In this document: piece by piece, positions 1,250-47,353 of the stretch
How the letters are laid out: the number at the start of each line of letters is the position of its first letter
Position numbering within the stretch: the stretch's first letter is position 1
NCBI GenBank assembly: GCA_018052945.1
Contig: JAGPMH010000001.1
Location: 8,220-72,219 of the forward strand
Length of the DNA: 64,000 nucleotides
DNA from: Negativicutes bacterium
GTDB lineage: Bacteria > Bacillota > Negativicutes > JAGPMH01
Reading direction: 5' to 3'
Program-made: the position numbers and the translations under genes
Notes under the pieces: generated by a model
Seen by the model: the letters and a program-made list of their open reading frames with translations, nothing else
The model's database searches: none
What the model was told of the DNA's origin: nothing

Positions 1250-1254
1250 TCAAT

Positions 1255-1305
1255 AAAGAGAAGCTCACTTTAAATTAATTTAAGGTGGGTTTCTCTTTAT
1301 TTTTA
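1255..1305 (+). terminator. Putative intrinsic terminator after the corC-like gene
   Basis: Imperfect 14-bp stem AAAGAGAAGCTCAC / GTGGGTTTCTCTTT with G-U pairs and a 16-nt loop, followed by ATTTTT. Confidence 0.45.
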
Positions 1306-1597
1306 CTGTAAAAAAAAACCAATAAATCAACTATTGTTATGCTAATATACTTATGATAATATAAGTATAGTTTATTTAAATTCAAAGAAGTTTGTTGAAT
1401 TTTGTCTAATAAATAAATCATTCAAAACTTTGGGGTTCCGGAAGCTTAGAGTGGCTAAAATTATTAAATTATTTATCAAAGCCTAGGTTAAAAATTTAAG
1501 CTTGGCACTGGTTTGCATTAAATAATATGAAAATTCACAAAATTTACTCAAATCATATTTTAACGGTATTTTTTATGAGTGGAGGATTGTTTCGAGG

Positions 1598-3127
1598 ATG
1601 AAGGACAAAAAGGTTTCAAGGCGTAATTTTTTTAAATTAGTTGGTAGTGCCGGCCTTTTAGGGACAAGTGTGATAGCTACTGGTTGTAGTGGTGACCCTG
1701 CGGGTGGAAAAGGTTGGATGCCTAGTCAATATAACTCTGCCGGAAGTTGGCCGGTAAAAGTTAAAGGACGTATTGCTATTGACGATAACAATCTATCCAT
1801 TGAACGAGATGATGCTAAATGCATCTTATGTGGACAATGTATCGAAGTTTGTAAAAATGTTATGAGTGTGTATGGAACATATGAATTGCCAATAAAAAAT
1901 GACACTCCTTGTGTAAATTGTGGACAATGTAGCTTATGGTGTCCATCCGGTGCTATAACAGAAAAAAATAATATTAAAGAATTAATGGCTGCTTTAAATG
2001 ATAAAAGTAAACATGTCATTGTGCAAACCGCTCCGGCAACAAAAGTTGCCTTAGGTGAAGAATTTGGGTTAGCACCAGGTAGTATTGTTGAAGGGAAGCA
2101 AGTTGCCGCCTTAAAAGAAATCGGCTTTGATGCGGTTGTTGACACTTGTTTTTCTGCTGATTTAACAATAATGGAAGAAGCTGCAGAAGCTTTGCATAGA
2201 TTGACTTCAACTGACAAACCGGTACCGATGTTTACCTCTTGCTGCCCAGGGTGGGTTAAATTCTGTGAATACTATTATCCAGAATTGATTGGCAATTTAT
2301 CAAGTTGCAAATCACCACAACAAATGATGGGAGCAGTAGTAAAGACTTATTATGCAAAAGAAAAAGGGTTAAACCCTGAAAATATTTTCTCGGTAGCAAT
2401 AATGCCTTGTACGGCGAAAAAAGCTGAATGTAAGAGGCCTGAAATGAATTCAGCCGGCCATGAGCATGGTAATGCTGACATAATGGATGTGGATTGTGTT
2501 ATTACTACTAGAGAATTAGCACAGTTAATTAAAAGTAAAAAAATAAACCTGAATAATTTAGCTGATGTTAAATATGATTCAATTCTTGGTGAAAGTACTG
2601 GCGCTGGTGTTATTTTTGGTACCACCGGTGGAGTAATGGAAGCGGCAATCAGAACTTTATACTATAATGTTACTAAAGATAATCCACCGGAAGAATTGTT
2701 AAATTGGCAAAGTGTCCGTGGATTAAATGGTGTAAAAGAAGCTACTGTTAGTGTTCCAGGTGTTGGTGAGGTTAGCATCGCTGTTTGTCATGGTTTAAAA
2801 AATGCCAGAACCGTACTTAAAAAAGTGAAAAATAAGGAAGCTTCGTGGCAATTTATTGAGTTTATGGCTTGCCCTGGTGGGTGCATTGGTGGTGGTGGTC
2901 AACCGCGTACTTCCTTGCCACCAACAGATGAGATTAGAAAGGCTAGAATTGCTAATCTATATAGCCTTGATAACAAAGCTGTGAAAAGACTTAGTTATCA
3001 AAATAAAGAAATTCAAGATGCTTATAGCAAATATTTGACACAGCCTTTAAGTCATAAGGCTGAAGAGCTATTGCATACACGTTTTGAGAATAAAAGTAAT
3101 TTACTTAATGCCAAGAAAGATGTGTAA
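1598..3127 (+). CDS. [FeFe] hydrogenase catalytic subunit with an N-terminal twin-arginine (Tat) signal peptide; 2x[4Fe-4S] F-cluster domain plus H-cluster domain
   Basis: SRRNFFK Tat motif. Two CxxCxxCxxxC(P) ferredoxin motifs (CILCGQCIEVC, CVNCGQCSLWCP). H-cluster signatures L1 TSCCPGW, L2 MPCTAKKAE, L3 EFMACPGGCIGGGGQP. GGAGG lies 11 nt upstream of the ATG. Confidence 0.85.
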   Translation: MKDKKVSRRNFFKLVGSAGLLGTSVIATGCSGDPAGGKGWMPSQYNSAGSWPVKVKGRIAIDDNNLSIERDDAKCILCGQCIEVCKNVMSVYGTYELPIKNDTPCVNCGQCSLWCPSGAITEKNNIKELMAALNDKSKHVIVQTAPATKVALGEEFGLAPGSIVEGKQVAALKEIGFDAVVDTCFSADLTIMEEAAEALHRLTSTDKPVPMFTSCCPGWVKFCEYYYPELIGNLSSCKSPQQMMGAVVKTYYAKEKGLNPENIFSVAIMPCTAKKAECKRPEMNSAGHEHGNADIMDVDCVITTRELAQLIKSKKINLNNLADVKYDSILGESTGAGVIFGTTGGVMEAAIRTLYYNVTKDNPPEELLNWQSVRGLNGVKEATVSVPGVGEVSIAVCHGLKNARTVLKKVKNKEASWQFIEFMACPGGCIGGGGQPRTSLPPTDEIRKARIANLYSLDNKAVKRLSYQNKEIQDAYSKYLTQPLSHKAEELLHTRFENKSNLLNAKKDV

Positions 3128-3173
3128 TTAAGTTGTTGCTTAGGGTAATATTATTCTTTATAGAGGTGAAAAA

Positions 3174-3959
3174 ATGGGGCAGGGTAACGGTGTATTAGTT
3201 GATCTAACCAAGTGTATTGGTTGTGGGAGTTGTACAGTTGCTTGTAAACTGTGGAATAAATTAGAGTTTGATAAGAAAAAACCTACTACTGGTAATGATG
3301 TCAAATTAGTTGATAAAAACTGGACAGTAGTAACGAAAAATGAAGTTCAAGATAAGCAAAATTCTACAGCGTGGCGTTTTGTCAAAGAGCAATGTATGCA
3401 TTGTGTTGAACCAGCCTGTGCATCAGCTTGTTTCTCTAAGGCGTTACAACGCGATGAAAATGGCGCGGTAGTATATTATCCTGATTTATGTGTAGGTTGT
3501 CGTTATTGTATGATTGCGTGCCCATTTGATGTACCAAAGTATGAGTGGGAAAAAGCTTTTCCTTTAGTGACAAAGTGCCAAATGTGTTCAACGCGGATGA
3601 AAGATAGTCAAGCACCGGCTTGTGTCGATGTTTGTCCAACCGGCGTTATGAAATTTGGTACTCGTGATGAATTATTAAAACAAGCTGAAACCAAAATAGC
3701 TACTGATGCTAAATATGTAAAGCATATTTATGGTGCGAATGAGGTTGGAGGTACGAGCTGGTTATATTTATCGGATGTTCCGTTTGAAAAATTAGGTTTC
3801 AAAATGAATTTAGAAAGTGTTGCACCATCTACTTATACTCATAAATATCTTTCGAAAGTTCCAGCCTTAGCGATTGGCTGGGGTGCTTTTTTAACTGCTT
3901 TAGCAGTTTATACTAACCGTCGTAAAAAGTTAGGAAAAGACAAGCAGAAAAAAGATTAA
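3174..3959 (+). CDS. 4x[4Fe-4S] ferredoxin-type electron-transfer subunit (HybA/FdnH/PsrB-like) with a C-terminal transmembrane anchor
   Basis: Four Cys clusters: CIGCGSCTVAC, CMHCVEPACASAC, CVGCRYCMIACP, CQMCS...CVDVCP. Hydrophobic C-terminal helix VPALAIGWGAFLTALAVY followed by RRKK. No signal peptide. RBS AGAGGTG. Confidence 0.8.
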   Translation: MGQGNGVLVDLTKCIGCGSCTVACKLWNKLEFDKKKPTTGNDVKLVDKNWTVVTKNEVQDKQNSTAWRFVKEQCMHCVEPACASACFSKALQRDENGAVVYYPDLCVGCRYCMIACPFDVPKYEWEKAFPLVTKCQMCSTRMKDSQAPACVDVCPTGVMKFGTRDELLKQAETKIATDAKYVKHIYGANEVGGTSWLYLSDVPFEKLGFKMNLESVAPSTYTHKYLSKVPALAIGWGAFLTALAVYTNRRKKLGKDKQKKD

Positions 3960-3993
3960 TAATTACGGAAGAATGTTATGAGGAGGATTTGTT

Positions 3994-5181
3994 TTGAAAA
4001 GGATTAAAAAACAATATAAGCATGTTGATATATTAGGCTGGAAGTTTACCATAACACCAATGCGTTTTGTTTTAACGGCGATTGCGTTATTGAGTTTTGC
4101 GGTAATGTTGGTGCGGTTTATAACAGGTTATAGTCTGGTAACTAATTTGACGGATGAATCACCATGGGGGTTATGGATTGCTTTTGATGTTATGACCGGA
4201 GTAGCCTTAGCCGGTGGTGGTTATTCAACCGCTTTGTTGGTACATAGCTTTGAATATAAAAAATACAAGGCGGTAGCTAGAGGTGCACTATTAACATCAC
4301 TGTTTGGTTATATCCTCGTTATGGTTGGTTTATTCCTTGATATTGGTCAATGGTTTAATTTTTGGCGGCCGTTTGTTTCTTGGGGCTATAGCTCAGTTTT
4401 ATTTGAAGTTTTTTGGTGTATTTCAATTTATACTACCATCTTAAGTTTAGAATTTGCCGAAGTTGTTACAGAACGAATTGGCAAAAATGTCCATAGATTT
4501 ATTTTAAAAGCATTACCGGTATTAATTATTATAGGTTTAATTTTCCCAATGATGCATCAATCATCATTAGGTGGCTTATTTTTGATTGCAAAGAGTAAAA
4601 TGTATCCGTTATGGTGGAGTGAATTTTTACCGCTTTACTTCTTAATGTCATCATTCTTTGTTGGTTCAGCAATGGTTTGTATCGAGACGGAACTTGCTAG
4701 AAGAGCTTATCGTCATGAGATTCCTACCAATGTTTTAAAAAACCTGACAAGAGTAGGGGCTCGTATTATGGCGGCGTACCTAGCATTAAAACTTTTTGAT
4801 ATTATTGCGCAAGGTCAAGTTGGACTATTATTTGCTGGTAATATGCAAAGTAATATGTTTTTATTAGAATTATTTTTAGGAATTATCATTCCGCTAGGAA
4901 TTATCTTTAGTCCGTATGCCAAAACTCGTAATGGTTTATTGACATACTCCTTACTGGTGGCAGGGGGCGTTGTTTTAAATCGAATGAATATGGTCTTTAC
5001 TTCGATGTATACTAGTGGGAGCTATTTCCCTTCGATCTGGGAATTTATCGTAAGTGCCGGATTGATTTCAGTAGGCTGTTTATTATATTGTTTCATCGTT
5101 GAAAACTTCGTAGTAATTGGCGAATCATATGCGGTGCCGGCCAAAGTTCAAGATGCAACCGGTGAACATTCAGTACATTAA
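3994..5181 (+). CDS. NrfD/PsrC/HybB-family polytopic membrane (quinone-interacting) subunit
   Basis: 395 aa with about 8-10 predicted TM helices. TTG start 7 nt after AGGAGG. Lies 34 nt after the FeS gene (operon). Confidence 0.7.
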   Translation: MKRIKKQYKHVDILGWKFTITPMRFVLTAIALLSFAVMLVRFITGYSLVTNLTDESPWGLWIAFDVMTGVALAGGGYSTALLVHSFEYKKYKAVARGALLTSLFGYILVMVGLFLDIGQWFNFWRPFVSWGYSSVLFEVFWCISIYTTILSLEFAEVVTERIGKNVHRFILKALPVLIIIGLIFPMMHQSSLGGLFLIAKSKMYPLWWSEFLPLYFLMSSFFVGSAMVCIETELARRAYRHEIPTNVLKNLTRVGARIMAAYLALKLFDIIAQGQVGLLFAGNMQSNMFLLELFLGIIIPLGIIFSPYAKTRNGLLTYSLLVAGGVVLNRMNMVFTSMYTSGSYFPSIWEFIVSAGLISVGCLLYCFIVENFVVIGESYAVPAKVQDATGEHSVH

Positions 5182-5209
5182 AAAGCGTGAGCTAAGGCTC
5201 ACGCTTTTT
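5180..5209. terminator. Bidirectional intrinsic terminator between the convergent hydrogenase operon and the EAL-GGDEF gene
   Basis: Perfect 8-bp GC-rich stem GCGTGAGC-taag-GCTCACGC, flanked by AAAAA and TTTTT. Confidence 0.75.
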
Positions 5210-7016
5210 ATATATGGTCTTTAATAATAAAATTACTTTTTTTGATATTTTTACAAAGTTTTTTTATTTCAGCGGTTTTTGAAGCAAGACTTTTATTGTT
5301 AATGTTACGTTTGTTAAAAACCCTTAATGCTGCTAATGATATAGTCATAAGTGGAAATTTCTCTGAAACGTTGTTGCGATTATTAGCAACAACGTATTTT
5401 TGTTCCTGATGTTCAATCGAATAAAAAAACTTAGCTTGTTCATCAAAAGTTTCAATGATGGTGTTGCATAAATCTTCAATTTTTATTGAGGGCAGAAAAA
5501 CTATAAAGTCATCACCACCGATATGTCCAAGAAAATAATCACTACAATGAGTTTTTAGGCTGGTATTGATAAGTTCAGCAGTTGTCGATAAGGCAGTGTC
5601 ACCGGCTTCGAACCCATAGACGTCATTATAAGCTTTAAAATTATCAATATCGATGTAAATAGCGCTAAAAGGTATTAGCTGGTTAATATGACGGCTAGTT
5701 TCCCAATCGATAATTAAATTTCCCGGCAATCCGGTTAGTGGATTGGCATGACGAGCACGATTTAATTCAATTTGGGTGGTTTCTTCTAATAACCTTTTGA
5801 TGGATACAACTCCATAATAATTATTATCTTTGGTGATAATAATATTATTATATATTTCGTCGGTTGTACGGTTAAGGGCGGTTTTTGTTGCTATTTCAAT
5901 GGGGGTATTGTAGTCGATATTTAATGCTTTAGTATTAATAAGAATTTCAATAGGACGCTTACTATAAATTGATAGACCAAAAGGGGTTGCCAGATTATTT
6001 AGAAAAAGATCTTTGTTAATCATACCGAGGGGAATATTATCCTCTAAAATTACAGCACTGCTACTACCACTATTTTCTTTGAAATAATGTAAGATTTCTT
6101 GACCTAATGTTTCCTTGGTAAATGTCTGTTCTTTAGTGGCAATAGTGCCAATTGGTGCATAGAGCTTAGTGTTCATACTATATTGTGTTTTACTAAAAAA
6201 TTCTTGTTGAATTGTATCAATAATGTTTAAAGACGGTGTTGTTAAGGTCGGCTGCGGTTTCCCTAAAAAGAAGCCCTGACCGAAATTTACCCCTAGCTTA
6301 ATAAGAATTTTTAATTCAGCACAACTTTCAATACCTTCACCAATTGTTTTTATTCCGGTAGCAGTACTAAAATCAACAAGTGCCTTAATAATAGCTTGTT
6401 TATGTTTGTCCTTATCGCAGTTTCTGATTAATTCTAAATCAATTTTGATAAATTGCGGTGAAGTTTGTGCTAGTAATGTTAAGCCGGAATAACCTGACCC
6501 GACATCATCTAGTGCTAAGCGATAGCCTTGTGAACGGTAATTTTCCAAGATATCTTTAAAATTAGCTAAATCAGTAATAGCTGTTTTCTCAGTAATTTCA
6601 AAGACAATTTGACTAATATTAATAGTGTGCTCAGCTAAGATAACTTTAGTTGAACCATGGTGAAAAAATTTATCATATAAAACCTTAGGGTCAACATTAA
6701 TAAATAAAATTTTATCATTAATTGAGGGAAACGCTGTTTCAATAGCAGTAATTCGGCATAAATAATCTAATTCCCAAGTCTTTTCGAGATCGTTAGCTAC
6801 AGAAAATAGTTGATCGGGGCTGGCTAAAATGCTGTTAAGCGGACCACGACTTAAGGCTTCATAGCCTAAGACCGAGCCATCTTGTAAGTTTACAATAGGC
6901 TGAAAAAATGTGGTAATAGATTTTTCTTTTAATATTTTATTTAACTCCAAAGCCTGAGCTGTTTTTTCTGTTAGTACAGGTGCTGTCGCTATGGATAAAA
7001 AATTATGATTATGCAT
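5208..7016 (-). CDS. c-di-GMP signalling protein with N-terminal EAL domain, central CBS pair and C-terminal degenerate GGDEF domain
   Basis: EAL motifs QPIVNL, EALSR, DDVGSGYSGL, KID, EGIE, GQGFFLGKP. CBS-like stretches VILEDNIPLGMINKDLF and IIITKDNNYYGVVSIKRLLE. GGDEF domain ends ...HIGGDDFIVFLP, i.e. GGDDF instead of GG[DE]EF. Confidence 0.8.
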   Translation of the reverse strand: MHNHNFLSIATAPVLTEKTAQALELNKILKEKSITTFFQPIVNLQDGSVLGYEALSRGPLNSILASPDQLFSVANDLEKTWELDYLCRITAIETAFPSINDKILFINVDPKVLYDKFFHHGSTKVILAEHTINISQIVFEITEKTAITDLANFKDILENYRSQGYRLALDDVGSGYSGLTLLAQTSPQFIKIDLELIRNCDKDKHKQAIIKALVDFSTATGIKTIGEGIESCAELKILIKLGVNFGQGFFLGKPQPTLTTPSLNIIDTIQQEFFSKTQYSMNTKLYAPIGTIATKEQTFTKETLGQEILHYFKENSGSSSAVILEDNIPLGMINKDLFLNNLATPFGLSIYSKRPIEILINTKALNIDYNTPIEIATKTALNRTTDEIYNNIIITKDNNYYGVVSIKRLLEETTQIELNRARHANPLTGLPGNLIIDWETSRHINQLIPFSAIYIDIDNFKAYNDVYGFEAGDTALSTTAELINTSLKTHCSDYFLGHIGGDDFIVFLPSIKIEDLCNTIIETFDEQAKFFYSIEHQEQKYVVANNRNNVSEKFPLMTISLAALRVFNKRNINNKSLASKTAEIKKLCKNIKKSNFIIKDHI

Positions 7017-7280
7017 ATTAACCTCCTAAGATTGAGTCCTTATTTATAATGTAACAAGAAGAAAGAAGGTTTTTGTAAAAAATATGTTAAGATTTTGTAA
7101 AGATTGTTAATTACTAAGTTAAAACATAATATAATAAACTTTTTATTAATGGATAATTATTATTCAAAGAAACATACTATACATAAAAGTTTTAAAGAGT
7201 TATAATAAATTGTAATGTAATAGATTGATAAGGTAAATTAATGCCTTGTCTCAAGATACATTTTTGCTGGGAGGGATATT

Positions 7281-7844
7281 ATGACGATATTAGAGGAAGT
7301 ACTAGAATCTAATGACCATTTTGTAAAACATTTGCCTGAAGTATATTGTGCGATAAAACAACACGAAGCAAAATTGCCGAATAGACATTTGGCAATAGTT
7401 ACTTGTATGGATACAAGATTGGTGGATTTTTTAGAGCCGGCGTTAGGCATAAGACGTGGTGAAGCGAAAATTATTAAAAATGCTGGAAATACGGTGACCG
7501 GTCCGTTTGAGGCGACTATCCGTAGTTTGATGGTCGGTGTGTTTGAACTTGGGGTAAAAGAAATTATGGTTATTGGACATCATGATTGTGGAATAGCCAA
7601 TACAACGTCACAAAACTTAATTGAAAAAATGTTAAATCGGGGTATTTCAAAAGATGCGATAAGGATGATACAAGAAGAGCTAGTGCGTTGGTTAGATAAT
7701 TTTAAATACCCGGTAGAAAATGTGAAACAAGTTGTTGAAAAAATTCGTACTAATCCGTTGATTCCCAATGATGTTCCGGTTCATGGGTTAATGTTTGACC
7801 CGCACTCAGGAAAAATTGATATTATAATTGATGGCTATAAATAA
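7281..7844 (+). CDS. beta-class carbonic anhydrase
   Basis: CMDTR (CxDxR) and HHDCG (HxxCG) zinc-ligand motifs. 187 aa. GGGAGGG RBS. Confidence 0.8.
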   Translation: MTILEEVLESNDHFVKHLPEVYCAIKQHEAKLPNRHLAIVTCMDTRLVDFLEPALGIRRGEAKIIKNAGNTVTGPFEATIRSLMVGVFELGVKEIMVIGHHDCGIANTTSQNLIEKMLNRGISKDAIRMIQEELVRWLDNFKYPVENVKQVVEKIRTNPLIPNDVPVHGLMFDPHSGKIDIIIDGYK

Positions 7845-7864
7845 TAGAGACCTTATTAACTTGA

Positions 7865-7914
7865 CCCTAAAAGTTAGACAGTATTATAACTGAAATAACT
7901 TTTAGGGCGTTTTT
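7865..7914 (+). terminator. Intrinsic terminator after the carbonic anhydrase gene
   Basis: 12-bp stem CCCTAAAAGTTA...TAACTTTTAGGG followed by CGTTTTTT. Confidence 0.7.
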
Positions 7915-8267
7915 TATGGTAATTTTGTTATAAAAATTTAAAATATATTGCTGATTCTAAGTAATAGGTAGGTAGTAGACAACAGCTATACTGTATTTTA
8001 ATTTACATAGCAGATAATAATTTTTGTGTGTTTATTAAAATTTCGAAAAATACAATTCTAATCCTTTAATAAGATTAAGGTTTTCGAGGTAAACACAATT
8101 GATTTTTAAAAAAAGACATTATCTATAGTTGAGGCGTACTGGATAATGCAGTAATAAAAAAACTTATATGGGATATTGAAGATTGAGCTTCTTTTATTTA
8201 TAAGGATTTTAATAAACTGAGGATTAATATCTTGATTAGTATAAAAATTGCCTTATCAAGCTAAAGG

Positions 8268-8307
8268 AAAAAGGCTTGTTACCTGCGATACAAGCAACAA
8301 GCCTTTT
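8268..8307 (-). terminator. Putative terminator downstream of the speH-like gene (minus strand)
   Basis: GGCTTGTT-N15-AACAAGCC hairpin. The minus-strand transcript has TTTTT after the stem. Confidence 0.5.
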
Positions 8308-8360
8308 CAGCTAATTAATGAAATTTTCATCTGAATTTTAGGAATAATTTTATAGACGGG

Positions 8361-8816
8361 CTATTTATTGCTTTTTTGTGTTAGGATTTTTATAAATTTA
8401 GCACCGGTGTTTTTAATGCGACGCATCGGCGCCACTTTAACCTTAACTGTAGGTTTCATATCTTTGACGGCACCAAAATCGGCACGCTTAATGTGCGTAA
8501 CTTTTAGCTTGTCAGCTTTGAAAAATGTTTTGAGGATATTTAAGATTTGACTTGGTAAAAATGAATCTTTGTTTGAATATAAGTCAATAGAAACATATTT
8601 TGCTTCTGGATAAGCATGAATAGCGATATGGCTTTCAGGAAATAAAGCGATTAAAGAAAAGTTACCAGAATCATGGTGATCAGCAATGGCTGATAATGGC
8701 AGATTTATCAAAATGGCAATTTCATGAAGCAGACTTTTTAAAGCGGCAATATCAGTAATTTTTGCAGATTTGCAATCATACATATCAACACTAAGATTTT
8801 TGTTAATTATCGTCAT
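8361..8816 (-). CDS. speH: Pyruvoyl-dependent S-adenosylmethionine decarboxylase proenzyme (class 1b SpeH/SpeD family) with a Lys-rich C-terminal extension
   Basis: Conserved self-processing site FPESHIAIHAYPE (E-S cleavage; Ser becomes pyruvoyl). Similar to B. subtilis SpeD around [26 protein letters not shown]. Confidence 0.7.
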   Translation of the reverse strand: MTIINKNLSVDMYDCKSAKITDIAALKSLLHEIAILINLPLSAIADHHDSGNFSLIALFPESHIAIHAYPEAKYVSIDLYSNKDSFLPSQILNILKTFFKADKLKVTHIKRADFGAVKDMKPTVKVKVAPMRRIKNTGAKFIKILTQKSNK

Positions 8817-9017
8817 TTAAATAATAATCCCTTTCGTAAAATAAATTCTCTTCAAATTATAATTATAAATTGTTATCTAAGTAAAGTAAAGAGTAGGCTA
8901 TTGATCTAAGTAAGGGATATAGTGCATAAGAAGGTAAATGCTTGGTTGAATGAGAACTATATTCATGGTAAAATGTTGGAAGAATTAATAATCTGTAATA
9001 TAAGGAGAGTTGATATT

Positions 9018-9959
9018 ATGACTAAAACAATAACAGCTGTTTTAAATATTAAATACCCGATTTTACAAGGTGGCATGGCGTGGGTTTCAGAAGCGAAATT
9101 AGCAGCGGCTGTTTCTAATGCTGGTGGTGCTGGCATTATTGCGGCTGGTGGTAGAACACCTGAATATATTAGAGAACAAATTAAGTTAGCTAGAACTTTA
9201 ACGGATAAGCCTTTTGGAGTAAATATTCAATTAATGGCTCCGAATAAAGAAGAAATTTTGGCGGTAGTTTGTGAGGAAAAAGTTTCTTTTGTTACATTAG
9301 GAGCCGGTAATCCAGTGCCGTTTTTTGAAAAACTTAAAAATTCAGGGGTTAAAGTTATTCCGGTAGTGCCAAATGTAAAGTTAGCGAAAAGAGTGGAAAG
9401 TGCCGGTGCTGATGCGATTATTGTGGAAGGAATGGAAGCTGGTGGTCATATTGGTTCGTTAACGACAATGGCGTTAATGACTCAAGTTATTCCTGAAGTT
9501 GATATTCCGGTAGTTGTTGCCGGCGGGTTTGCGGATGGACGTGGCTTAGCGGCGGCGCTTACTATGGGAGCGGCCGGCGTACAAATGGGTACAAGATTTT
9601 TAATTGCTGAAGAGTGTGCCGTCCATGATAATGTTAAAGCTAAATTATTAGAAGCTGCAGATACTGATTCTGTTGTAACCGGACAAAGTATTGATCATTG
9701 CGTTCGTGGTGTTAAAAATAAATTTTCGCTAAGTTTTATTTCTTTAGAAAAACAAAAAATAAGTGAAGAAGAATTGGTAAAATTAGCAACGGGAACTAAT
9801 CGCTTGGCCGCGGTTGATGGTGATGTGGAAAATGGGATGGTTCAAGCTGGACAAAGCTTGTTACCATTGCGGAAAATTGAACCGGTGGCTAAAATAATTG
9901 AAGACATTGTAGCTGAAGCTAACAAATGTTTCAAAGAAACAGCGGGATTGGTTCTATAA
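9018..9959 (+). CDS. FMN-dependent NPD-family oxidoreductase (enoyl-ACP reductase II FabK-like / nitronate monooxygenase)
   Basis: ILQGGMAWVSEAKLAAAVSNAGGAGIIAAG motif and TIM-barrel NPD fold. ATG at 9018 follows TAAGGAGAG; the longer ORF from 8922 lacks an RBS. Confidence 0.7.
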   Translation: MTKTITAVLNIKYPILQGGMAWVSEAKLAAAVSNAGGAGIIAAGGRTPEYIREQIKLARTLTDKPFGVNIQLMAPNKEEILAVVCEEKVSFVTLGAGNPVPFFEKLKNSGVKVIPVVPNVKLAKRVESAGADAIIVEGMEAGGHIGSLTTMALMTQVIPEVDIPVVVAGGFADGRGLAAALTMGAAGVQMGTRFLIAEECAVHDNVKAKLLEAADTDSVVTGQSIDHCVRGVKNKFSLSFISLEKQKISEEELVKLATGTNRLAAVDGDVENGMVQAGQSLLPLRKIEPVAKIIEDIVAEANKCFKETAGLVL

Positions 9960-9977
9960 TAGTAAGAGGAGGTCATT

Positions 9978-11156
9978 ATGAATAATATTAGTTTAACAAA
10001 AGGTGTCTACTATGTAGGGGCAGTTGATTGGGATCAAAGAGATTTCCACGGCTATGCTACTGGACGAGGGGTTACCTATAATTCATATTTAATTGTTGAT
10101 GAAAAAGTTTGTTTAGTAGATGCGGTTAAAGCGCCCTTTGCTGAAGAATTTATTGATAGAATAAAGAGTATTATTGATCCTAGTAAAATTGATTATATTG
10201 TAATAAATCACGTAGAACCTGATCATTCTAGTGCTTTGCCTCAATTGATGGCACTTGCACCAAATGCAAAAGTTGTTTTAACGGCTCATGGTAAAACGGA
10301 AGTGCTAAAATATTACCAACAAGAATATGACTTTATGGTAGTTAAAGAAGGCGATAGTATTTCTTTAGGGCAAAGAAATCTTAGCTTTATTCCCTTGCCA
10401 ATGATTCATTGGCCTGATTCGATGGCTTGTTATTTAGATGGTGATAATATTTTATTTTCTAATGATGCTTTTGGACAACATTTGTGTACCAGTAAAAGGT
10501 TTGATGATGAAGTCGATATGTATTTAGCACTTGAAGAAGCTGGTAAATATTATGCTAATATTTTAATGCCGTTCAATAAATTAGTAGCGAAAGCTTTGCC
10601 GAAGATTAAAGCCTTAGATATTAAGATTATTGCACCTAGTCATGGTGTTTGTTGGCGTGGTGGGATTGAGGAAATTTTTAAAAAATATGAAAAGTGGTCT
10701 CATAATAACAACGAGGATAAAGTTATTATTGTTTATGATAGTATGTGGGGCGCTACTGAAAAGATGGCTCGGATGATACTTGATGGGGTTGCTAGCACTG
10801 GTGTTACAGCTAGCTTGTATCGTGTTAATAAAACCGAACTAAGTGAAGTCATGGCGCAATTATTAGAATCGAAAGGGATTATTATTGGTTCATCAACTCA
10901 TAATAATTCAGTTCTTAAAACTATCGGTGGATTTTTAACTTATTTACAAGGTCTTAAGCCTACAGGTAAGCTGTGTACCTCTTTTGGTGCTTATGGGTGG
11001 GCTGGTGGTGCTGATAAAACCTTAGCGGAGGTTTTAGCTAAAACTGATATGGAAGTTGAGCCCGGATTATTTGTAAAATGGACTCCGGATAAAGTTGAAA
11101 TAAATCAGTGTTTTGAATTTGGGGTTGCTTTTGGTGAAAAAATATTAAATAAATAG
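9978..11156 (+). CDS. Flavodiiron protein (FprA/rubredoxin:oxygen oxidoreductase type; metallo-beta-lactamase plus flavodoxin domains)
   Basis: N-terminal YYVGAVDWDQRDFHGY..., di-iron site H.EPDHS, C-terminal flavodoxin-like domain. GAGGAGG RBS. Confidence 0.85.
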   Translation: MNNISLTKGVYYVGAVDWDQRDFHGYATGRGVTYNSYLIVDEKVCLVDAVKAPFAEEFIDRIKSIIDPSKIDYIVINHVEPDHSSALPQLMALAPNAKVVLTAHGKTEVLKYYQQEYDFMVVKEGDSISLGQRNLSFIPLPMIHWPDSMACYLDGDNILFSNDAFGQHLCTSKRFDDEVDMYLALEEAGKYYANILMPFNKLVAKALPKIKALDIKIIAPSHGVCWRGGIEEIFKKYEKWSHNNNEDKVIIVYDSMWGATEKMARMILDGVASTGVTASLYRVNKTELSEVMAQLLESKGIIIGSSTHNNSVLKTIGGFLTYLQGLKPTGKLCTSFGAYGWAGGADKTLAEVLAKTDMEVEPGLFVKWTPDKVEINQCFEFGVAFGEKILNK

Positions 11157-21879: not shown

Positions 21880-22125
21880 TAAAATATATTAAATGTATTG
21901 ATTGGGAGAGTAGGTACATTATTTCTTTACAGAGAGAGGCCAGCGAGGTTGAGAATGGCGTCAAAGAAATCTTACTGAAATGCACCCATGAACATATTTA
22001 TCGAAATAATAGTAGATAAATACGGCTAACTACCGTTATTAGTGCTAAGTGAGGCTTTTGCCTAAACAGAGTGGAACCGCGGACCACCGTCTCTGAATGA
22101 GATGGTGGTCTTTCTGTTTCTAAAA
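21880..22125 (+). promoter_or_regulatory. T-box riboswitch leader (cysteine-specific; specifier UGC) controlling cysE-cysS
   Basis: Specifier-loop-like GAAAUGCACCC (UGC at 21981-83). Conserved T-box sequence AGAGTGGAACCGCGG at 22068-82. Terminator GGACCACCGTCTC-tgaat-GAGATGGTGGTC followed by TTTCTGTTTC. Confidence 0.75.
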
Positions 22126-30138: not shown

Positions 30139-30214
<76 letters not shown>

Positions 30215-30231
30215 AATATTTTTAAATTAAT

Positions 30232-30307
30232 GCTGGTGTAGCTCAATTGGTAGAGCAGCTGACTTGTAATCAGCAGGTTGGGGGTTCAAGTCCTCTCGCC
30301 AGCTCCA
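30232..30307 (+). tRNA. tRNA-Thr (anticodon UGU)
   Basis: Cloverleaf with anticodon loop CTTGTAA. Close to B. subtilis tRNA-Thr(UGU). CCA encoded. Confidence 0.8.
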
Positions 30308-30310
30308 TAT

Positions 30311-30395
30311 GGATGGGTTCCCGAGTGGCTAAAGGGAGCAGACTGTAAATCTGCCGGCTCTGCCTTCGTTGGTTCGAATCCAACCCCATCCACCA
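30311..30395 (+). tRNA. tRNA-Tyr (anticodon GUA), long variable arm
   Basis: Anticodon loop ACTGTAAAT, 85 nt, class II variable arm. CCA encoded. Confidence 0.85.
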
Positions 30396-30402
30396 TTTAC
30401 AC

Positions 30403-30478
<76 letters not shown>

Positions 30479-30488
30479 AATGAAAATT

Positions 30489-30564
30489 GCTGATGTAGCT
30501 CAGTCGGTAGAGCGTATCCTTGGTAAGGATAAGGTCACCGGTTCAATCCCGGTCATTAGCTCCA
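30489..30564 (+). tRNA. tRNA-Thr (anticodon GGU)
   Basis: Anticodon stem TATCC/GGATA with loop TTGGTAA. CCA encoded. Confidence 0.75.
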
Positions 30565-30570
30565 TAGATT

Positions 30571-30647
30571 GGCGGTGTAGCTCAGTTGGCTAGAGCATGC
30601 GGTTCATACCCGCAGTGTCCGGGGTTCAAATCCCTGTGCCGCCACCA
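30571..30647 (+). tRNA. tRNA-Met (elongator, anticodon CAU)
   Basis: GGCGGTGTAGCTCAG...GGTTCATACCCG matches Bacillus elongator tRNA-Met. CCA encoded. Confidence 0.8.
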
Positions 30648-30655
30648 AAAAACAT

Positions 30656-30680
30656 AACCCCGTGAGGGGTTTTTCTGTTT
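30656..30680 (+). terminator. Intrinsic terminator after the tRNA array
   Basis: AACCCC-gtga-GGGGTT followed by TTTCTGTTT. Confidence 0.6.
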
Positions 30681-30831
30681 GTAAAATAGTTATTTTAATA
30701 GTTATAAAAAATATAACTAAAAATAAAATACCCGGTAACGTGGACTATTGACAGCAAGACTTAAGTATGCTAGATTATATTAGTGACGTTAACAAGAAGT
30801 GTCATATTTACAGGTAAGAGGGGTGCGAAAT

Positions 30832-30981
30832 ATGCGCAATGCAGTTACATTGGCCTGTGTTGAATGTAAGCAACGCAATTATCAGACCAATAAAAACAAA
30901 AAGAACGATCCGGATAGATTAGAGTTCAACAAATACTGCAAGTTCTGCAAAAAACATACTTTACATAAAGAAACAAAATAG
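30832..30981 (+). CDS. rpmG: 50S ribosomal protein L33 (zinc-ribbon C4 form)
   Basis: [17 protein letters not shown]...[17 protein letters not shown] after AGGTAAGAGGGG. The ORF-track start at 30799 is too long. Confidence 0.9.
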
Positions 30982-31000
30982 TTTCTTCATAAAGTAATGT

Positions 31001-31076
31001 AGGGGTATAGCTCAATTGGTAGAGTAGCGGTCTCCAAAACCGTTGGTTGTGGGTTCAAGTCCTACTGCCCCTGCCA
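31001..31076 (+). tRNA. tRNA-Trp (anticodon CCA)
   Basis: Anticodon loop CTCCAAA. Located between rpmG and secE, as in many bacteria. CCA encoded. Confidence 0.85.
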
Positions 31077-47244: not shown

Positions 47245-47272
47245 AAAGTTATGTAAGACCCTAATGCGATGA

Positions 47273-47309
47273 CGTGAAAGATTGCTTACGGGGTAAGGGA
47301 ACTTTCACG
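47273..47309 (+). promoter_or_regulatory. Nested stem-loop in the S10-operon leader
   Basis: Outer stem CGTGAAAG...CTTTCACG encloses an inner CTTAC-ggg-GTAAG hairpin. Confidence 0.35.
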
Positions 47310-47353
47310 GAGAAATGTCCGTTCTAGAAACTGGGCGATAAGGAGGAAATAAA

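What the first reader, a model, noticed from the sequence alone, without database searches (positions are those of the whole stretch)
1598..5181. Operon for a Tat-exported, membrane/quinone-coupled [FeFe] hydrogenase: catalytic subunit plus HybA/FdnH-like 4x[4Fe-4S] protein plus NrfD/PsrC-like membrane subunit
Three tightly spaced co-directional genes (gaps 46 and 34 nt), closed by a bidirectional terminator. The first is an [FeFe] hydrogenase with an M2-type architecture (two F-clusters plus H-cluster; all three H-cluster signatures intact). The second is a HybA/FdnH/PsrB-type four-cluster ferredoxin with a C-terminal membrane anchor. The third is an NrfD/PsrC/HybB-type polytopic quinone-interacting subunit. 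This looks like a chimera: an [FeFe] catalytic subunit joined to the HybA-HybB (or FdnH-FdnI, PsrB-PsrC) electron-transfer module normally seen with [NiFe] or molybdoenzymes. It would make an extracytoplasmic, H2:quinone (uptake) or quinol-driven (reverse electron transport) hydrogenase. Externally oriented membrane-bound [FeFe] hydrogenases have been inferred genomically in a few syntrophs but are biochemically almost uncharacterised. An NrfD-type anchor (rather than cytochrome b) is notable. Maturases hydE/F/G are not in this window.
Basis: partly seen in the sequence, partly recalled or inferred. Interest (0 to 1): 0.7.

Follow-up and report, generated by a model that had tools for sequence, protein, structure and literature searches.

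The report
Membrane-bound, exported [FeFe] hydrogenase operon
Three adjacent genes encode an iron-only hydrogenase that is probably exported and attached to the outer face of the cell membrane, where an iron-sulfur protein and a quinone-binding membrane protein would link hydrogen to the respiratory quinone pool; this enzyme type is already known from genome surveys but has never been studied biochemically.

Summary
There are three co-directional genes: 1598-3127, 3174-3959 and 3994-5181. The gaps are 46 and 34 nt. Strong hairpin terminators bracket the unit at 1252-1301 and 5179-5210.

- **Gene 1** is a group A [FeFe] hydrogenase with two F-clusters, intact H-cluster motifs and a fused small-subunit domain. 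It carries a twin-arginine signal followed by a family-invariant lipobox cysteine.
- **Gene 2** is a HybA/HmcB/FdnH-like protein with 16 Cys, enough for four [4Fe-4S] clusters. It has no signal peptide and a C-terminal membrane anchor.
- **Gene 3** is a 10-helix NrfD/HybB-type protein. The AF2 model has pLDDT 91, and its best fold matches are ActC, ActF and PsrC. The four HybB proton-path residues shown by mutagenesis are conserved, and there is no dihaem histidine set.

The trio is conserved in 10 related loci (Negativicutes, Desulfotomaculum relatives and two uncultured Firmicutes). These hydrogenases form an exclusive clade in my sample. 73 other group A loci lack such neighbours.

The novelty was overrated, because Desulfotomaculum genome papers from 2012-2014 already describe this trio. 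It does differ from Syntrophomonas wolfei Hyd2, which I recovered and which uses a separate Tat-bearing small subunit plus cytochrome b.

Verdict: a new member of a known but biochemically uncharacterised kind. Interest is about 0.35.

The parts
1252..1301 (+). Intrinsic terminator of the upstream CNNM/CorC gene. It marks the 5' boundary of the hydrogenase transcription unit.
   Evidence: 23-bp hairpin, -27.3 kcal/mol, z -8.5, followed by UUUUU.
1302..1597 (+). AT-rich leader and promoter region of the operon. There is a promoter-like site at 1534-1561 and a Shine-Dalgarno sequence, GGAGGA, about 11 nt before the ATG.
   Evidence: GC content is 27%. No Rfam family matches, even at E<=1. The promoter is a 9/12 consensus match only, so it is not shown to be functional.
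1598..3127 (+). hydA: group A [FeFe] hydrogenase of 509 aa, with an M2 layout plus a fused small-subunit domain.
   Evidence: Fe_hyd_lg_C 5.7e-98 (residues 138-433), Fe_hyd_SSU 8.7e-17 (444-498), and TIGR02512 above its cut-off. Best solved relatives are HydA1 of bifurcating HydABC (7.6e-125) and Desulfovibrio periplasmic HydAB (1.4e-119).
1616..1636 (+). Twin-arginine (Tat) export motif, SRRNFFK.
   Evidence: An RR-type motif is present in 118 of 120 homologues. R8 and F11 are invariant in alignment A1.
1673..1687 (+). Lipobox-like IATG-C at the end of the hydrophobic signal region. Cys30 is the predicted lipidated N-terminus of the mature protein.
   Evidence: Cys30 is invariant in A1 (34 sequences). 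A [LVIA][AST]G-C box follows the RR motif in 114 of 120 homologues. Cleavage and lipidation are inferred, not shown.
1703..1732 (+). Family-specific conserved stretch GGKGWMPSQY, continuing to WPVKVKGR. It lies between the lipobox and the first F-cluster.
   Evidence: It is conserved in all family members. Other group A hydrogenases align only from about residue 61, so they lack it. A role as a docking segment is speculation.
1820..1942 (+). Two [4Fe-4S] F-cluster motifs: CILCGQCIEVC (residues 75-85) and CVNCGQCSLWC (105-115).
   Evidence: All eight Cys are invariant in A1.
2234..2905 (+). H-cluster signatures: L1 TSCCPGW (2234-2254), L2 MPCTAKKAE (2402-2428) and L3 EFMACPGGCIGGGGQP (2858-2905).
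   Evidence: All three are intact. L2 is present in 119 of 120 homologues and L3 in 120 of 120.
3174..3959 (+). FeS electron-transfer subunit of 261 aa, HybA/HmcB/FdnH-like. It has 16 Cys for four [4Fe-4S] clusters and no signal peptide.
   Evidence: Fer4_11 6.9e-25, HmcB 274 bits, HybA 215 bits, FdnH (1kqf_B) 7e-39, and 35% identity to E. coli HybA starting at HybA residue 39. The Cys motifs lie at residues 14-24, 74-86, 106-116 and 135-154.
3858..3914 (+). C-terminal transmembrane tail anchor of the FeS subunit (VPALAIGWGAFLTALAVYT), followed by the basic tail NRRKKLGKDKQKKD.
   Evidence: The helix and basic tail are conserved in all 11 family members aligned. The positive-inside rule puts the FeS domain outside the cell (inference).
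3994..5181 (+). NrfD/HybB-type integral membrane subunit of 395 aa with 10 TM helices. It is the predicted quinone site and proton path.
   Evidence: Pfam NrfD is above its cut-off and the HybB model gives 1.1e-79. The AF2 model has pLDDT 91.1 and pTM 0.90 with 10 long helices. The top 10 Foldseek PDB hits are ActC, ActF and PsrC. HybB R89, Y99, E148 and H184 map to R96, Y106, E153 and H188. Only one His is invariant in the family.
5179..5210 (.). Bidirectional intrinsic terminator shared with the convergent EAL-GGDEF gene (5208-7016, minus strand).
   Evidence: -21.7 kcal/mol on the + strand and -20.7 kcal/mol on the - strand, z about -8, with A-runs and U-runs on both sides.

Best explanation
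The three genes form one operon for a heterotrimeric, membrane-bound [FeFe] hydrogenase whose catalytic part faces the outside of the cytoplasmic membrane.

**Assembly and export (inferred).** HydA folds in the cytoplasm and receives its two F-clusters and its H-cluster. It binds the signal-less four-cluster FeS subunit, and the pair is exported by the Tat system using HydA's twin-arginine signal. The signal is probably removed at the lipobox, leaving HydA lipid-anchored through Cys30. The FeS subunit stays tethered by its C-terminal helix, with its basic tail in the cytoplasm.

**Electron path (inferred from homology).** The pair docks onto the 10-helix NrfD/HybB-type subunit. Electrons then run from the H-cluster through the two F-clusters and the four [4Fe-4S] clusters to a (mena)quinone site near the outer face of the NrfD subunit.

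**Energy coupling (inferred).** The experimentally implicated proton-path residues of E. coli HybB are conserved. Quinone reduction is therefore probably coupled to proton uptake or translocation across the membrane, as proposed for Hyd-2. That would make the enzyme energy-conserving when oxidising H2 and dependent on proton-motive force when evolving H2 from quinol.

**Direction.** In this Anaerosinus-related Negativicute, H2 uptake into the quinone pool is the more likely physiological direction, but this is not settled.

What is shown here: gene order, domain content, motifs, topology signals, fold, conserved synteny and clade structure. What is inferred: export, lipidation, complex formation, quinone reactivity, proton coupling and direction.
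For: - **Domains and motifs:**
- **Tat motif and lipobox:** present in 118/120 and 114/120 homologues respectively; Cys30 is invariant.
- **FeS subunit:** 16 invariant Cys, no signal peptide in any of 11 family members, and a conserved C-terminal helix with a K/R tail.
- **NrfD subunit:** AF2 pLDDT 91, 10 helices, and an N-terminal segment with 6 K/R. Fold matches to ActC/ActF/PsrC have E values from 1e-9 to 1e-4. A family profile matches ActC at 2.3e-10.
- **Similarity to E. coli HybB:** 30% identity across the full length. 18 of the 25 residues that the review PMC8076601 lists for HybB are identical, including R89, Y99, E148 and H184, whose substitution impaired H2 oxidation.
- **No dihaem histidine set:** only H188 is invariant.
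- **Conserved synteny:** the order HydA-FeS-NrfD is found in L005-L009, L011 and L050, in D. nigrificans (L085), in Pelosinus fermentans (L086) and in an Anaerosinus-type contig (L087). 73 other group A [FeFe] loci have no such neighbours within 8 kb.
- **Phylogeny:** trio-linked HydA sequences form an exclusive clade of 11 among 84 sequences in a neighbour-joining tree built without the signal region.
- **Operon boundaries:** terminators lie on both sides and none in the 46- and 34-nt gaps.
- **Precedents:** E. coli Hyd-2 (HybOC-HybA-HybB) is a reversible, proton-motive-force-coupled H2:menaquinone oxidoreductase (PMC5902676). The same FeS/NrfD module is attached to Tat-exported FdnG in other operons (bioRxiv 10.64898/2026.06.25.734252).
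Against: - Nothing here is biochemical. No experiment on any member of this exact architecture was found in the searchable literature.
- HydEFG maturases, menaquinone biosynthesis, Tat components, Lgt/Lsp and quinol-oxidising reductases could not be checked, because only 64 kb of the genome is available and none of these lies in it.
- Genes 2 and 3 score well below the curated equivalog cut-offs for HybA (215 vs 263), HmcB (274 vs 420), HybB (269 vs 450) and HmcC (249 vs 550). Properties of Hyd-2 are therefore transferred across about 30-35% identity.
- A terminator-like hairpin inside gene 2 (3864-3884) leaves a small chance of partial termination before gene 3.
- The D. ruminis genome paper predicted an uncleaved signal anchor rather than a lipoprotein (PMC3569383).
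- [FeFe] enzymes are often biased towards H2 evolution, so the uptake direction is only weakly preferred.
Confidence: 0.75

Rival explanations
1. The complex is the same, but its physiological role is the reverse. It would oxidise menaquinol and evolve H2 outside the cell, driven by the proton-motive force (reverse electron transport), as proposed for syntrophs.
For: - E. coli Hyd-2, with the homologous HybAB module, can run in reverse at the expense of the proton gradient (PMC5902676).
- The same reading is given to HybAB-linked hydrogenase and formate dehydrogenase in Pelotomaculum (bioRxiv 10.64898/2026.06.25.734252).
- It is also given to cytochrome-b-linked Hyd2 of S. wolfei, which is about 20-fold induced in syntrophy (PMC5101538).
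- The family occurs in Desulfotomaculum relatives that can grow syntrophically (PMC4149029).
Against: - Menaquinol to H2 is strongly endergonic (about -74 mV against -414 mV; textbook values, not tested here). It requires very low H2 pressure.
- The closest relatives are Negativicutes that are not known as obligate syntrophs (Anaerosinus, Anaerovibrio, Mitsuokella, Propionispora).
- Nothing in the window points to syntrophic fatty-acid oxidation.
Confidence: 0.3
2. The NrfD-like subunit is only a membrane anchor or ion channel, and the electrons go to an acceptor other than quinone, such as a periplasmic carrier or another complex.
For: - Quinone binding was not tested.
- Some NrfD-family members sit in complexes whose quinone reactivity is debated.
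- Genes 2 and 3 score about as well against HmcB/HmcC as against HybA/HybB, and Hmc passes electrons on to further subunits.
Against: - The operon has only three genes. The loci examined contain no cytochrome c, cytochrome b or HdrD-like partner.
- The NrfD subunit has no haem-ligand set, so it cannot relay electrons across the membrane.
- Residues lining the HybB quinone/proton region are conserved.
Confidence: 0.1
3. The adjacency is incidental. The FeS and NrfD genes would serve another catalytic subunit encoded elsewhere (for example a formate dehydrogenase), and HydA would be an independent soluble periplasmic hydrogenase.
For: The closest non-family relatives of genes 2 and 3 belong to FdnG operons.
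Against: - The order HydA-FeS-NrfD is kept in all 10 related loci from at least 10 taxa, with short or overlapping junctions.
- The HydA clade tracks the association exactly.
- The FeS subunit has no export signal of its own in any member, and HydA is the only Tat-bearing gene in the operon.
- Terminators flank only the trio.
Confidence: 0.03
4. The enzyme is cytoplasmic. The RR motif would be non-functional and the complex would face inwards.
For: No export experiment exists. The literature describes some Firmicute 'periplasmic-type' hydrogenases for which no clear signal could be found (PMC9431212, PMC3569383).
Against: - The RR motif is conserved in 118 of 120 homologues and is followed by a hydrophobic stretch and a lipobox Cys.
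- The basic tail after the FeS subunit's anchor helix and the basic N-terminus of the NrfD subunit both fit an outward-facing FeS domain.
- Homologous HybA, FdnH and PsrB modules face the outside (PMC5902676, PMC8076601).
Confidence: 0.03

Closest known systems
The 'membrane-associated [FeFe] hydrogenase' of Desulfotomaculum and relatives (D. nigrificans DesniDRAFT_1068-1070 / Desca_0940-0938; D. ruminis Desru_3431-3433; D. gibsoniae Desgi_0926-0928)
   Same: Gene order and domain content are the same: a Tat-bearing HydA of about 510-520 aa, a 261-aa Fer4_11 protein, and an NrfD protein of about 380 aa (L085). HydA is 64% identical, and the FeS and NrfD subunits are about 55-65% identical. It belongs to the same HydA clade. 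The genome papers predict the same outward orientation (PMC4149029, PMC3569383, PMC4148979).
   Different: The host lineage differs: here an Anaerosinus-related Negativicute, not a sulfate reducer. Many Desulfotomaculum and Desulforamulus homologues carry TSCSPGW in motif L1, whereas the window has the canonical TSCCPGW. The D. nigrificans paper calls the membrane subunit 'orthologous to cytochrome b', and the D. ruminis paper predicts an uncleaved signal anchor. My analysis indicates an NrfD/HybB-type subunit without haem ligands and a lipobox.
E. coli hydrogenase-2 (HybOC-HybA-HybB), group 1c [NiFe]
   Same: The electron-transfer and membrane module is homologous. The FeS subunit is 35% identical to HybA and the membrane subunit is 30% identical to HybB over the full length. 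Both membrane subunits have 10 TM helices and no haem, and the HybB residues R89, Y99, E148 and H184 are conserved. Both are Tat-exported and outward-facing. Hyd-2 is a reversible, proton-motive-force-coupled H2:menaquinone oxidoreductase (PMC5902676).
   Different: The catalytic unit is a single-polypeptide [FeFe] enzyme, not a [NiFe] large/small-subunit pair. HybA has its own Tat signal, while the protein here starts at the position of HybA residue 39. Scores are far below the HybA and HybB equivalog cut-offs, which the E. coli proteins pass easily.
Tat-exported formate dehydrogenase with a HybAB-like module (FdnG-FeS-NrfD-FdhE; 'Fdn-Hyb' of Pelotomaculum; Desgi_1522-1524)
   Same: These operons hold the closest non-family relatives that I looked up for genes 2 and 3 (three of the four look-ups that showed an upstream gene): 42-54% identity for the FeS subunit and 42-46% for the NrfD subunit. 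The FeS protein has the same length, lacks a signal peptide and has the same C-terminal anchor. In the one catalytic subunit I read (L088), the subunit carries the Tat signal.
   Different: The catalytic subunit is a molybdopterin or tungstopterin formate dehydrogenase, split at a selenocysteine codon, and an FdhE gene follows. No hydrogenase is present.
Syntrophomonas wolfei Hyd2ABC, the only membrane-bound [FeFe] hydrogenase found here with experimental data
   Same: It is an outward-facing, Tat-exported, membrane-bound group A [FeFe] hydrogenase thought to exchange electrons with menaquinone (PMC5101538, PMC3582634). Its HydA is about 47-50% identical to the window's over the catalytic core.
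   Different: The architecture differs (L095). The large subunit has no signal. A separate 135-aa small subunit carries the Tat signal. The membrane subunit is a 220-aa Ni_hydr_CYTB cytochrome b. There is no HybA-like or NrfD-like gene. Its HydA falls outside the trio clade.
Desulfovibrio periplasmic [FeFe] hydrogenase HydAB (DdH)
   Same: It is periplasmic and has the M2 cluster complement. It is closely related in sequence (1.4e-119 to the fused form). The small-subunit domain is present in both.
   Different: DdH is a soluble heterodimer whose small subunit carries the Tat signal, and it reduces cytochrome c3 (general knowledge). The window's enzyme has the small-subunit domain fused at the C-terminus, an N-terminal Tat/lipobox signal and dedicated membrane partners.

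Membership tests
[FeFe] hydrogenase, group A | The H-domain HMM scores above the curated cut-off. | tested here: met
   TIGR02512 scores 483.5 bits against a cut-off of 405.95. Pfam Fe_hyd_lg_C is 5.7e-98.
[FeFe] hydrogenase, group A | H-cluster motifs L1 (TSCCPxW), L2 (MPCxxKxxE) and L3 (ExMxCxxGCxxGGGQP) have all their Cys ligands. | tested here: met
   TSCCPGW at 213-219, MPCTAKKAE at 269-277 and EFMACPGGCIGGGGQP at 421-436. These positions are conserved in alignment A1.
[FeFe] hydrogenase, group A | The genome encodes the HydE, HydF and HydG maturases. | not testable with these tools
   None was found among the genes checked with Pfam in the 64-kb window or the 10-kb flanks seen in metagenome contigs. 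The rest of the genome is unavailable.
Tat-exported lipoprotein | A twin-arginine motif is followed by a hydrophobic region and a lipobox Cys. | tested here: met
   SRRNFFK, then LVGSAGLLGTSVIATG-C30. The RR motif is found in 118/120 homologues and the lipobox in 114/120.
Tat-exported lipoprotein | Actual Tat-dependent export, signal peptidase II cleavage and lipidation. | not testable with these tools
   This needs experiments such as globomycin sensitivity, lipid labelling or a tat mutant.
HybA / HmcB / FdnH-type four-cluster ferredoxin (CISM beta-subunit family) | A Fer4_11 domain with 16 Cys in four cluster motifs. | tested here: met
   Fer4_11 is 6.9e-25. The Cys motifs lie at 14-24, 74-86, 106-116 and 135-154 and are conserved in 11 family members.
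HybA / HmcB / FdnH-type four-cluster ferredoxin (CISM beta-subunit family) | A C-terminal transmembrane tail anchor. | tested here: met
   Residues 229-247 plus the tail NRRKKLGKDKQKKD, conserved across the family.
HybA proper (NF008134 equivalog) | The score exceeds the equivalog cut-off, and the protein has its own N-terminal Tat signal. | tested here: not met
   215 bits against a cut-off of 263, whereas E. coli HybA scores 597. There is no signal peptide, and the alignment starts at HybA residue 39. It is HybA-like, not a HybA orthologue.
NrfD/PsrC superfamily | A Pfam NrfD match above the gathering score, and the fold of two four-helix bundles. | tested here: met
   46.8 bits against a cut-off of 25.8. 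AF2 pLDDT is 91 with 10 helices. The top 10 Foldseek hits are ActC, ActF and PsrC, with TM-score up to 0.68. The family profile matches ActC at 2.3e-10.
HybB proper (NF008133 equivalog) | The score exceeds the equivalog cut-off. | tested here: not met
   268.7 bits against a cut-off of 450, whereas E. coli HybB scores 625. It belongs to a sister group that also includes the formate-dehydrogenase-linked proteins (259-284 bits).
HybB-like function (proton-coupled quinone site) | Conservation of the residues shown by mutagenesis to matter in HybB (R89, Y99, E148, H184). | tested here: met
   These map to R96, Y106, E153 and H188. They are invariant or at least 90% conserved in alignment A2. The residue list and mutant data come from PMC8076601.
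HybB-like function (proton-coupled quinone site) | Quinone binding and proton translocation. | not testable with these tools
   This needs biochemistry or a structure.
Dihaem cytochrome b anchors (HyaC/FdnI, Ni_hydr_CYTB) | A PF01292 match and four conserved haem-ligand His residues. | tested here: not met
   There is no PF01292 hit and only one invariant His. By contrast, the S. wolfei-type HydC2 matches PF01292 at 1.2e-20.
S. wolfei Hyd2ABC-type membrane [FeFe] hydrogenase | A separate Tat-bearing small subunit plus a cytochrome b. | tested here: not met
   L095 has Fe_hyd_SSU plus a TAT_signal on a 135-aa protein, and a Ni_hydr_CYTB protein. It has no homologue of the window's genes 2 or 3.
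Desulfotomaculum-type trimeric membrane-associated [FeFe] hydrogenase | Tat-HydA, Fer4_11 and a 10-TM NrfD protein in this order, with HydA in the same clade. | tested here: met
   L085 (D. nigrificans) shows the identical layout. HydA is 64% identical. It falls in the exclusive clade. The trio is described in PMC4149029.

The most novel reading that the evidence does not exclude
This trio may be the [FeFe] counterpart of Hyd-2: a lipoprotein-anchored, Tat-exported hydrogenase coupled to the proton-motive force through a haem-free NrfD subunit. It would then be an unrecognised class of NrfD-containing respiratory complex. The 2021 catalogue of such complexes never mentions [FeFe], and its HybB census counts no Firmicutes (PMC8076601). 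It could also be a major route of H2 uptake into the quinone pool in gut, rumen and sewage Negativicutes such as Anaerovibrio and Mitsuokella. The Anaerovibrio-type HydA cluster alone holds about 1500 database sequences.
Probability: 0.45. Interest if true: 0.55.

Novelty: new member of a known kind. Interest (0 to 1): 0.35.

Why it matters
Membrane-bound, outward-facing [FeFe] hydrogenases are among the least characterised hydrogenases. I found no purification, structure or kinetic study for this HydA-FeS-NrfD type in the literature I could search.

Two points follow from this work:
- The type is a coherent, vertically maintained family that is widespread in Negativicutes and Desulfotomaculum relatives.
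- It is distinct from the cytochrome-b-linked Hyd2 of S. wolfei, with which it is easily conflated. Public annotation calls its membrane subunit a 'molybdoenzyme anchor' or a 'Ni/Fe-hydrogenase cytochrome b', and it is neither.

If it is a proton-coupled H2:menaquinone oxidoreductase, it would give fermentative gut and rumen bacteria a respiratory way to consume H2, which bears on hydrogen budgets and methane formation. It would also add a third catalytic partner, after [NiFe] hydrogenase and formate dehydrogenase, to the swappable HybAB-type quinone module.

For this particular window the finding is an orthologue of something already noted in genome papers, so the gain is better definition rather than discovery.

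Tried and rejected
1. **Is this the S. wolfei Hyd2 type? No.** I recovered an S. wolfei-type locus by searching metagenome contigs with a published qPCR primer. Contig L095 carries four of the published primers exactly and a fifth at the protein level. It has a different architecture: large subunit, Tat-bearing small subunit and cytochrome b.
2. **The genome-contig scan with the HydA alignment was cut short.** Distribution statements are therefore a sample.
3. **A search with HydA residues 1-67 failed.** It was meant to count family members carrying the signal region but returned only two fragments, so it was uninformative.
4. **Single-sequence phmmer of gene 3 against the PDB found nothing**. 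A family profile and a fold search were needed.
5. **No Rfam match in the 300-nt leader,** at gathering or E<=1 thresholds. No riboswitch or known leader is evident.
6. **The terminator-like site inside gene 2 (3864-3884)** lies in the coding sequence for the anchor helix. I judged it a probable chance match, since the scan finds 8 sites against 2.6 expected.
7. **Some literature was out of reach.** Pereira et al. 2011, probably the original description of these hydrogenases in sulfate reducers, is not held in the library. Statements about rumen physiology therefore rest on my own knowledge.
8. **Cytochrome b identity for gene 3 was considered and rejected** (no PF01292 match, one invariant His).
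9. **Hmc-type transmembrane electron transfer was considered and rejected** (no haem subunits or HdrD-like partner in any locus).

Full report
**1. The observation**

ORF listing gives three co-directional genes at 1598-3127 (509 aa), 3174-3959 (261 aa) and 3994-5181 (395 aa, TTG start after GAGGAGG). The gaps are 46 and 34 nt.

The unit is bracketed by two strong hairpins:
- 1252-1301 (-27.3 kcal/mol, z -8.5, followed by a U-run) ends the upstream CNNM/CorC gene.
- 5179-5210 folds equally well on both strands (-21.7 and -20.7 kcal/mol, z about -8). It has A-runs and U-runs on both sides and overlaps the stop codons of gene 3 and of the convergent EAL-GGDEF gene.

A 300-nt leader of 27% GC precedes hydA and matches no Rfam family.

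**2. Gene 1**

Pfam finds Fe_hyd_lg_C (5.7e-98), Fe_hyd_SSU (8.7e-17) and ferredoxin motifs. NCBIfam TIGR02512 '[FeFe] hydrogenase, group A' is passed at 483.5 bits against 405.95. The two CxxCxxCxxxC motifs and the H-cluster signatures TSCCPGW, MPCTAKKAE and EFMACPGGCIGGGGQP are all present. The best solved relatives are the HydA subunits of bifurcating HydABC and the Desulfovibrio periplasmic enzyme.

The N-terminus reads MKDKKVSRRNFFKLVGSAGLLGTSVIATGC. In an alignment of 34 homologues, R8, F11 and Cys30 are invariant. Among the 120 best database homologues, 118 have the RR motif and 114 have a [LVIA][AST]G-C lipobox after the hydrophobic stretch.

I therefore read HydA as a Tat-exported lipoprotein. 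The D. ruminis genome paper suggested an uncleaved signal anchor instead, based on SignalP 4.0 (PMC3569383).

Between the lipobox and the first F-cluster lies a conserved stretch, GGKGWxPxQY...WPVQVKGR. Other group A enzymes align only from about residue 61 and lack it.

**3. Gene 2**

- Pfam Fer4_11 is 6.9e-25. The best NCBIfam matches are HmcB (274 bits), HybA (215) and FDH-beta (149), all below their equivalog cut-offs. The best PDB match is FdnH at 7e-39.
- It has 16 Cys in four cluster motifs.
- It is 35% identical to E. coli HybA, but the alignment begins at HybA residue 39. The HybA Tat signal has no counterpart here.
- Across 11 family members the protein always starts just before the first Cys motif. 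It always ends with a hydrophobic helix followed by a K/R-rich tail.

The simplest reading is that it is exported by riding on HydA's Tat signal, as FdnH does with FdnG. It would end up tail-anchored with the clusters outside the cell.

**4. Gene 3**

- Pfam NrfD scores 46.8 bits against a cut-off of 25.8. NCBIfam gives HybB 1.1e-79 and HmcC 1e-73, both below cut-off.
- An AlphaFold2 model built on 64 diverse homologues is confident (pLDDT 91.1, pTM 0.90) and shows ten long helices.
- Its ten best Foldseek matches in the PDB are all NrfD-family subunits: ActC and ActF of alternative complex III, and PsrC. The family profile matches ActC at 2.3e-10.
- It is 30% identical to E. coli HybB over the full length.
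- Of the 25 residues that the review PMC8076601 lists for HybB, 18 are identical. These include R89, Y99, E148 and H184, whose substitution lowered H2 oxidation. They are invariant or nearly so in the family.
- Only one His is invariant and there is no PF01292 match, so this is not a dihaem cytochrome b.
- The basic N-terminus (6 K/R) and the even helix count put both ends in the cytoplasm, as in HybB.

**5. Is the association real?**

In a genome scan, all seven full-length family loci with downstream sequence carry HydA-FeS-NrfD in this order. These are Anaerovibrio lipolyticus and A. slackiae, two Negativicute MAGs, a Gracilibacteraceae MAG, Desulfotruncus, and a more divergent rumen Firmicute. 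The 73 other group A [FeFe] loci have no such neighbours within 8 kb.

Look-ups for D. nigrificans, Pelosinus fermentans and an Anaerosinus gibii-type contig show the same trio. The Anaerosinus-type contig also shares the window's flanks (DEAD helicase and CNNM upstream, an EAL protein downstream). Its CNNM protein is 75% identical, which places the window's organism near Anaerosinus.

A neighbour-joining tree of 84 sequences, built without the signal region, puts the 11 trio-linked HydA sequences in an exclusive clade. That tree has no bootstrap support and rests on a limited sample.

The window's own sequence recurs in many ENA metagenome assemblies, one of them from a sewage series.

**6. 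Where the module comes from**

At 42-54% identity, the nearest relatives of genes 2 and 3 that I looked up outside the [FeFe] family sit in formate dehydrogenase operons. Three of four look-ups showed this; the fourth contig was too short to show context. In two of the three the operon reads FdnG (split at selenocysteine), a 261-aa signal-less FeS protein, a NrfD protein and FdhE; in L088 the FdnG N-terminus carries an RR signal. The third contig (L090) shows FeS-NrfD-FdhE, with the upstream gene cut off.

This layout has been described for D. gibsoniae (PMC4148979) and Pelotomaculum (bioRxiv 10.64898/2026.06.25.734252). All of these proteins score 259-284 bits on the HybB model, while E. coli HybB scores 625.

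So the 'chimera' idea is right in spirit. One FeS/NrfD quinone module serves [NiFe] hydrogenase, formate dehydrogenase and [FeFe] hydrogenase. The [FeFe] version is closest to the formate-dehydrogenase-linked one.

**7. Mechanism**

By homology with Hyd-2 and PsrABC, electrons should pass from the H-cluster through two F-clusters and four [4Fe-4S] clusters to a quinone site near the outer face of the NrfD subunit. Protons would be handled through the conserved HybB-like path.

Hyd-2 is reversible and coupled to the proton-motive force (PMC5902676), so either direction is possible. I favour H2 uptake in this Negativicute on thermodynamic grounds and because of the relatives' lifestyle. That step is inference, and I give the reverse role 0.3.

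Export, lipidation, complex formation and quinone reactivity are all untested.

**8. Comparison with what is known**

This membrane-associated hydrogenase is described in the D. ruminis, D. gibsoniae and D. nigrificans genome papers. [quoted passage not shown]

The only membrane-bound [FeFe] hydrogenase for which I found experimental data is S. wolfei Hyd2, and it is a different construction. I recovered an S. wolfei-type locus through published qPCR primers. It has a signal-less large subunit, a 135-aa small subunit carrying the Tat signal, and a Ni_hydr_CYTB cytochrome b.

The 2021 review of NrfD-containing complexes does not mention [FeFe] hydrogenases at all. Public names for gene 3's homologues are inconsistent and misleading.

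**9. Verdict**

The locus is a new member of a kind already known from genome annotation but biochemically uncharacterised.

This work adds four refinements:
- the conserved lipobox on HydA;
- the signal-less, hitchhiking FeS subunit;
- a proper NrfD/HybB assignment with conserved proton-path residues;
- the separation from the S. wolfei Hyd2 type.

Interest is 0.35.

Noticed in passing
Homologues P0014, P0020, P0025, P0027 and others; not in the window (2234-2254 is canonical): 41 of the 120 closest HydA homologues (including Desulfotomaculum, Desulforamulus and Sporomusa members) have TSCSPGW instead of TSCCPGW in H-cluster motif L1. Ser replaces the second Cys. From memory, that Cys corresponds to a [4Fe-4S]H ligand in CpI, so this would be an unusual H-cluster environment.
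   Followed up: partly
L087:2496-11603: In an Anaerosinus gibii-type contig the trio is duplicated in tandem at the same chromosomal position as in the window. An extra fourth NrfD gene (6366-7637) lies between the two copies and is the best match (74%) to the window's gene 3.
   Followed up: partly
L009:11677-12936: In a Selenomonadales MAG, a second [FeFe] hydrogenase (419 aa, no small-subunit domain and no Tat region) follows the trio directly.
   Followed up: no
window 5208-7016 (-): The convergent neighbour is a 602-aa protein with the EAL domain at the N-terminus (residues 25-254) and the GGDEF domain at the C-terminus (426-535), the reverse of the usual order. It shares the bidirectional terminator. 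In the Anaerosinus-type contig the corresponding neighbour is a PTS_EIIC-EAL protein.
   Followed up: no
window 3864-3884: A terminator-like hairpin plus T-run lies inside the 3' end of gene 2, in the coding sequence for the anchor helix. It is probably a chance match but could attenuate read-through into gene 3.
   Followed up: no
window 21889-22097, 30139-31073, 47261-47341: A T-box leader lies ahead of the cysE-cysS pair. There is a cluster of seven tRNA genes, and an S10-Clostridia ribosomal-protein leader. All are ordinary housekeeping features of a Firmicute chromosome.
   Followed up: no
window 7281-11156: Downstream neighbours are a beta-carbonic anhydrase (7281-7844), an AdoMet decarboxylase-like gene (8361-8816, minus strand), an NMO-family oxidoreductase (8922-9959) and a flavodiiron protein (9978-11156; Lactamase_B, ODP and Flavodoxin domains). 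The flavodiiron protein suggests O2/NO detoxification in a strict anaerobe.
   Followed up: no
Database names of P0139, P0152, P0153, P0163, P0239: Homologues of gene 3 are annotated variously as 'NrfD/PsrC family molybdoenzyme membrane anchor subunit', 'Ni/Fe-hydrogenase 2 integral membrane subunit HybB' and 'Ni/Fe-hydrogenase cytochrome b subunit'. None fits a haem-free partner of an [FeFe] enzyme. No NCBIfam equivalog model covers this family.
   Followed up: partly
L011:11691-14383: In the divergent rumen Firmicute locus, the trio is followed by a formate/nitrite transporter and NuoE/NuoF-like genes. This hints at linkage with formate metabolism or a bifurcating enzyme.
   Followed up: no
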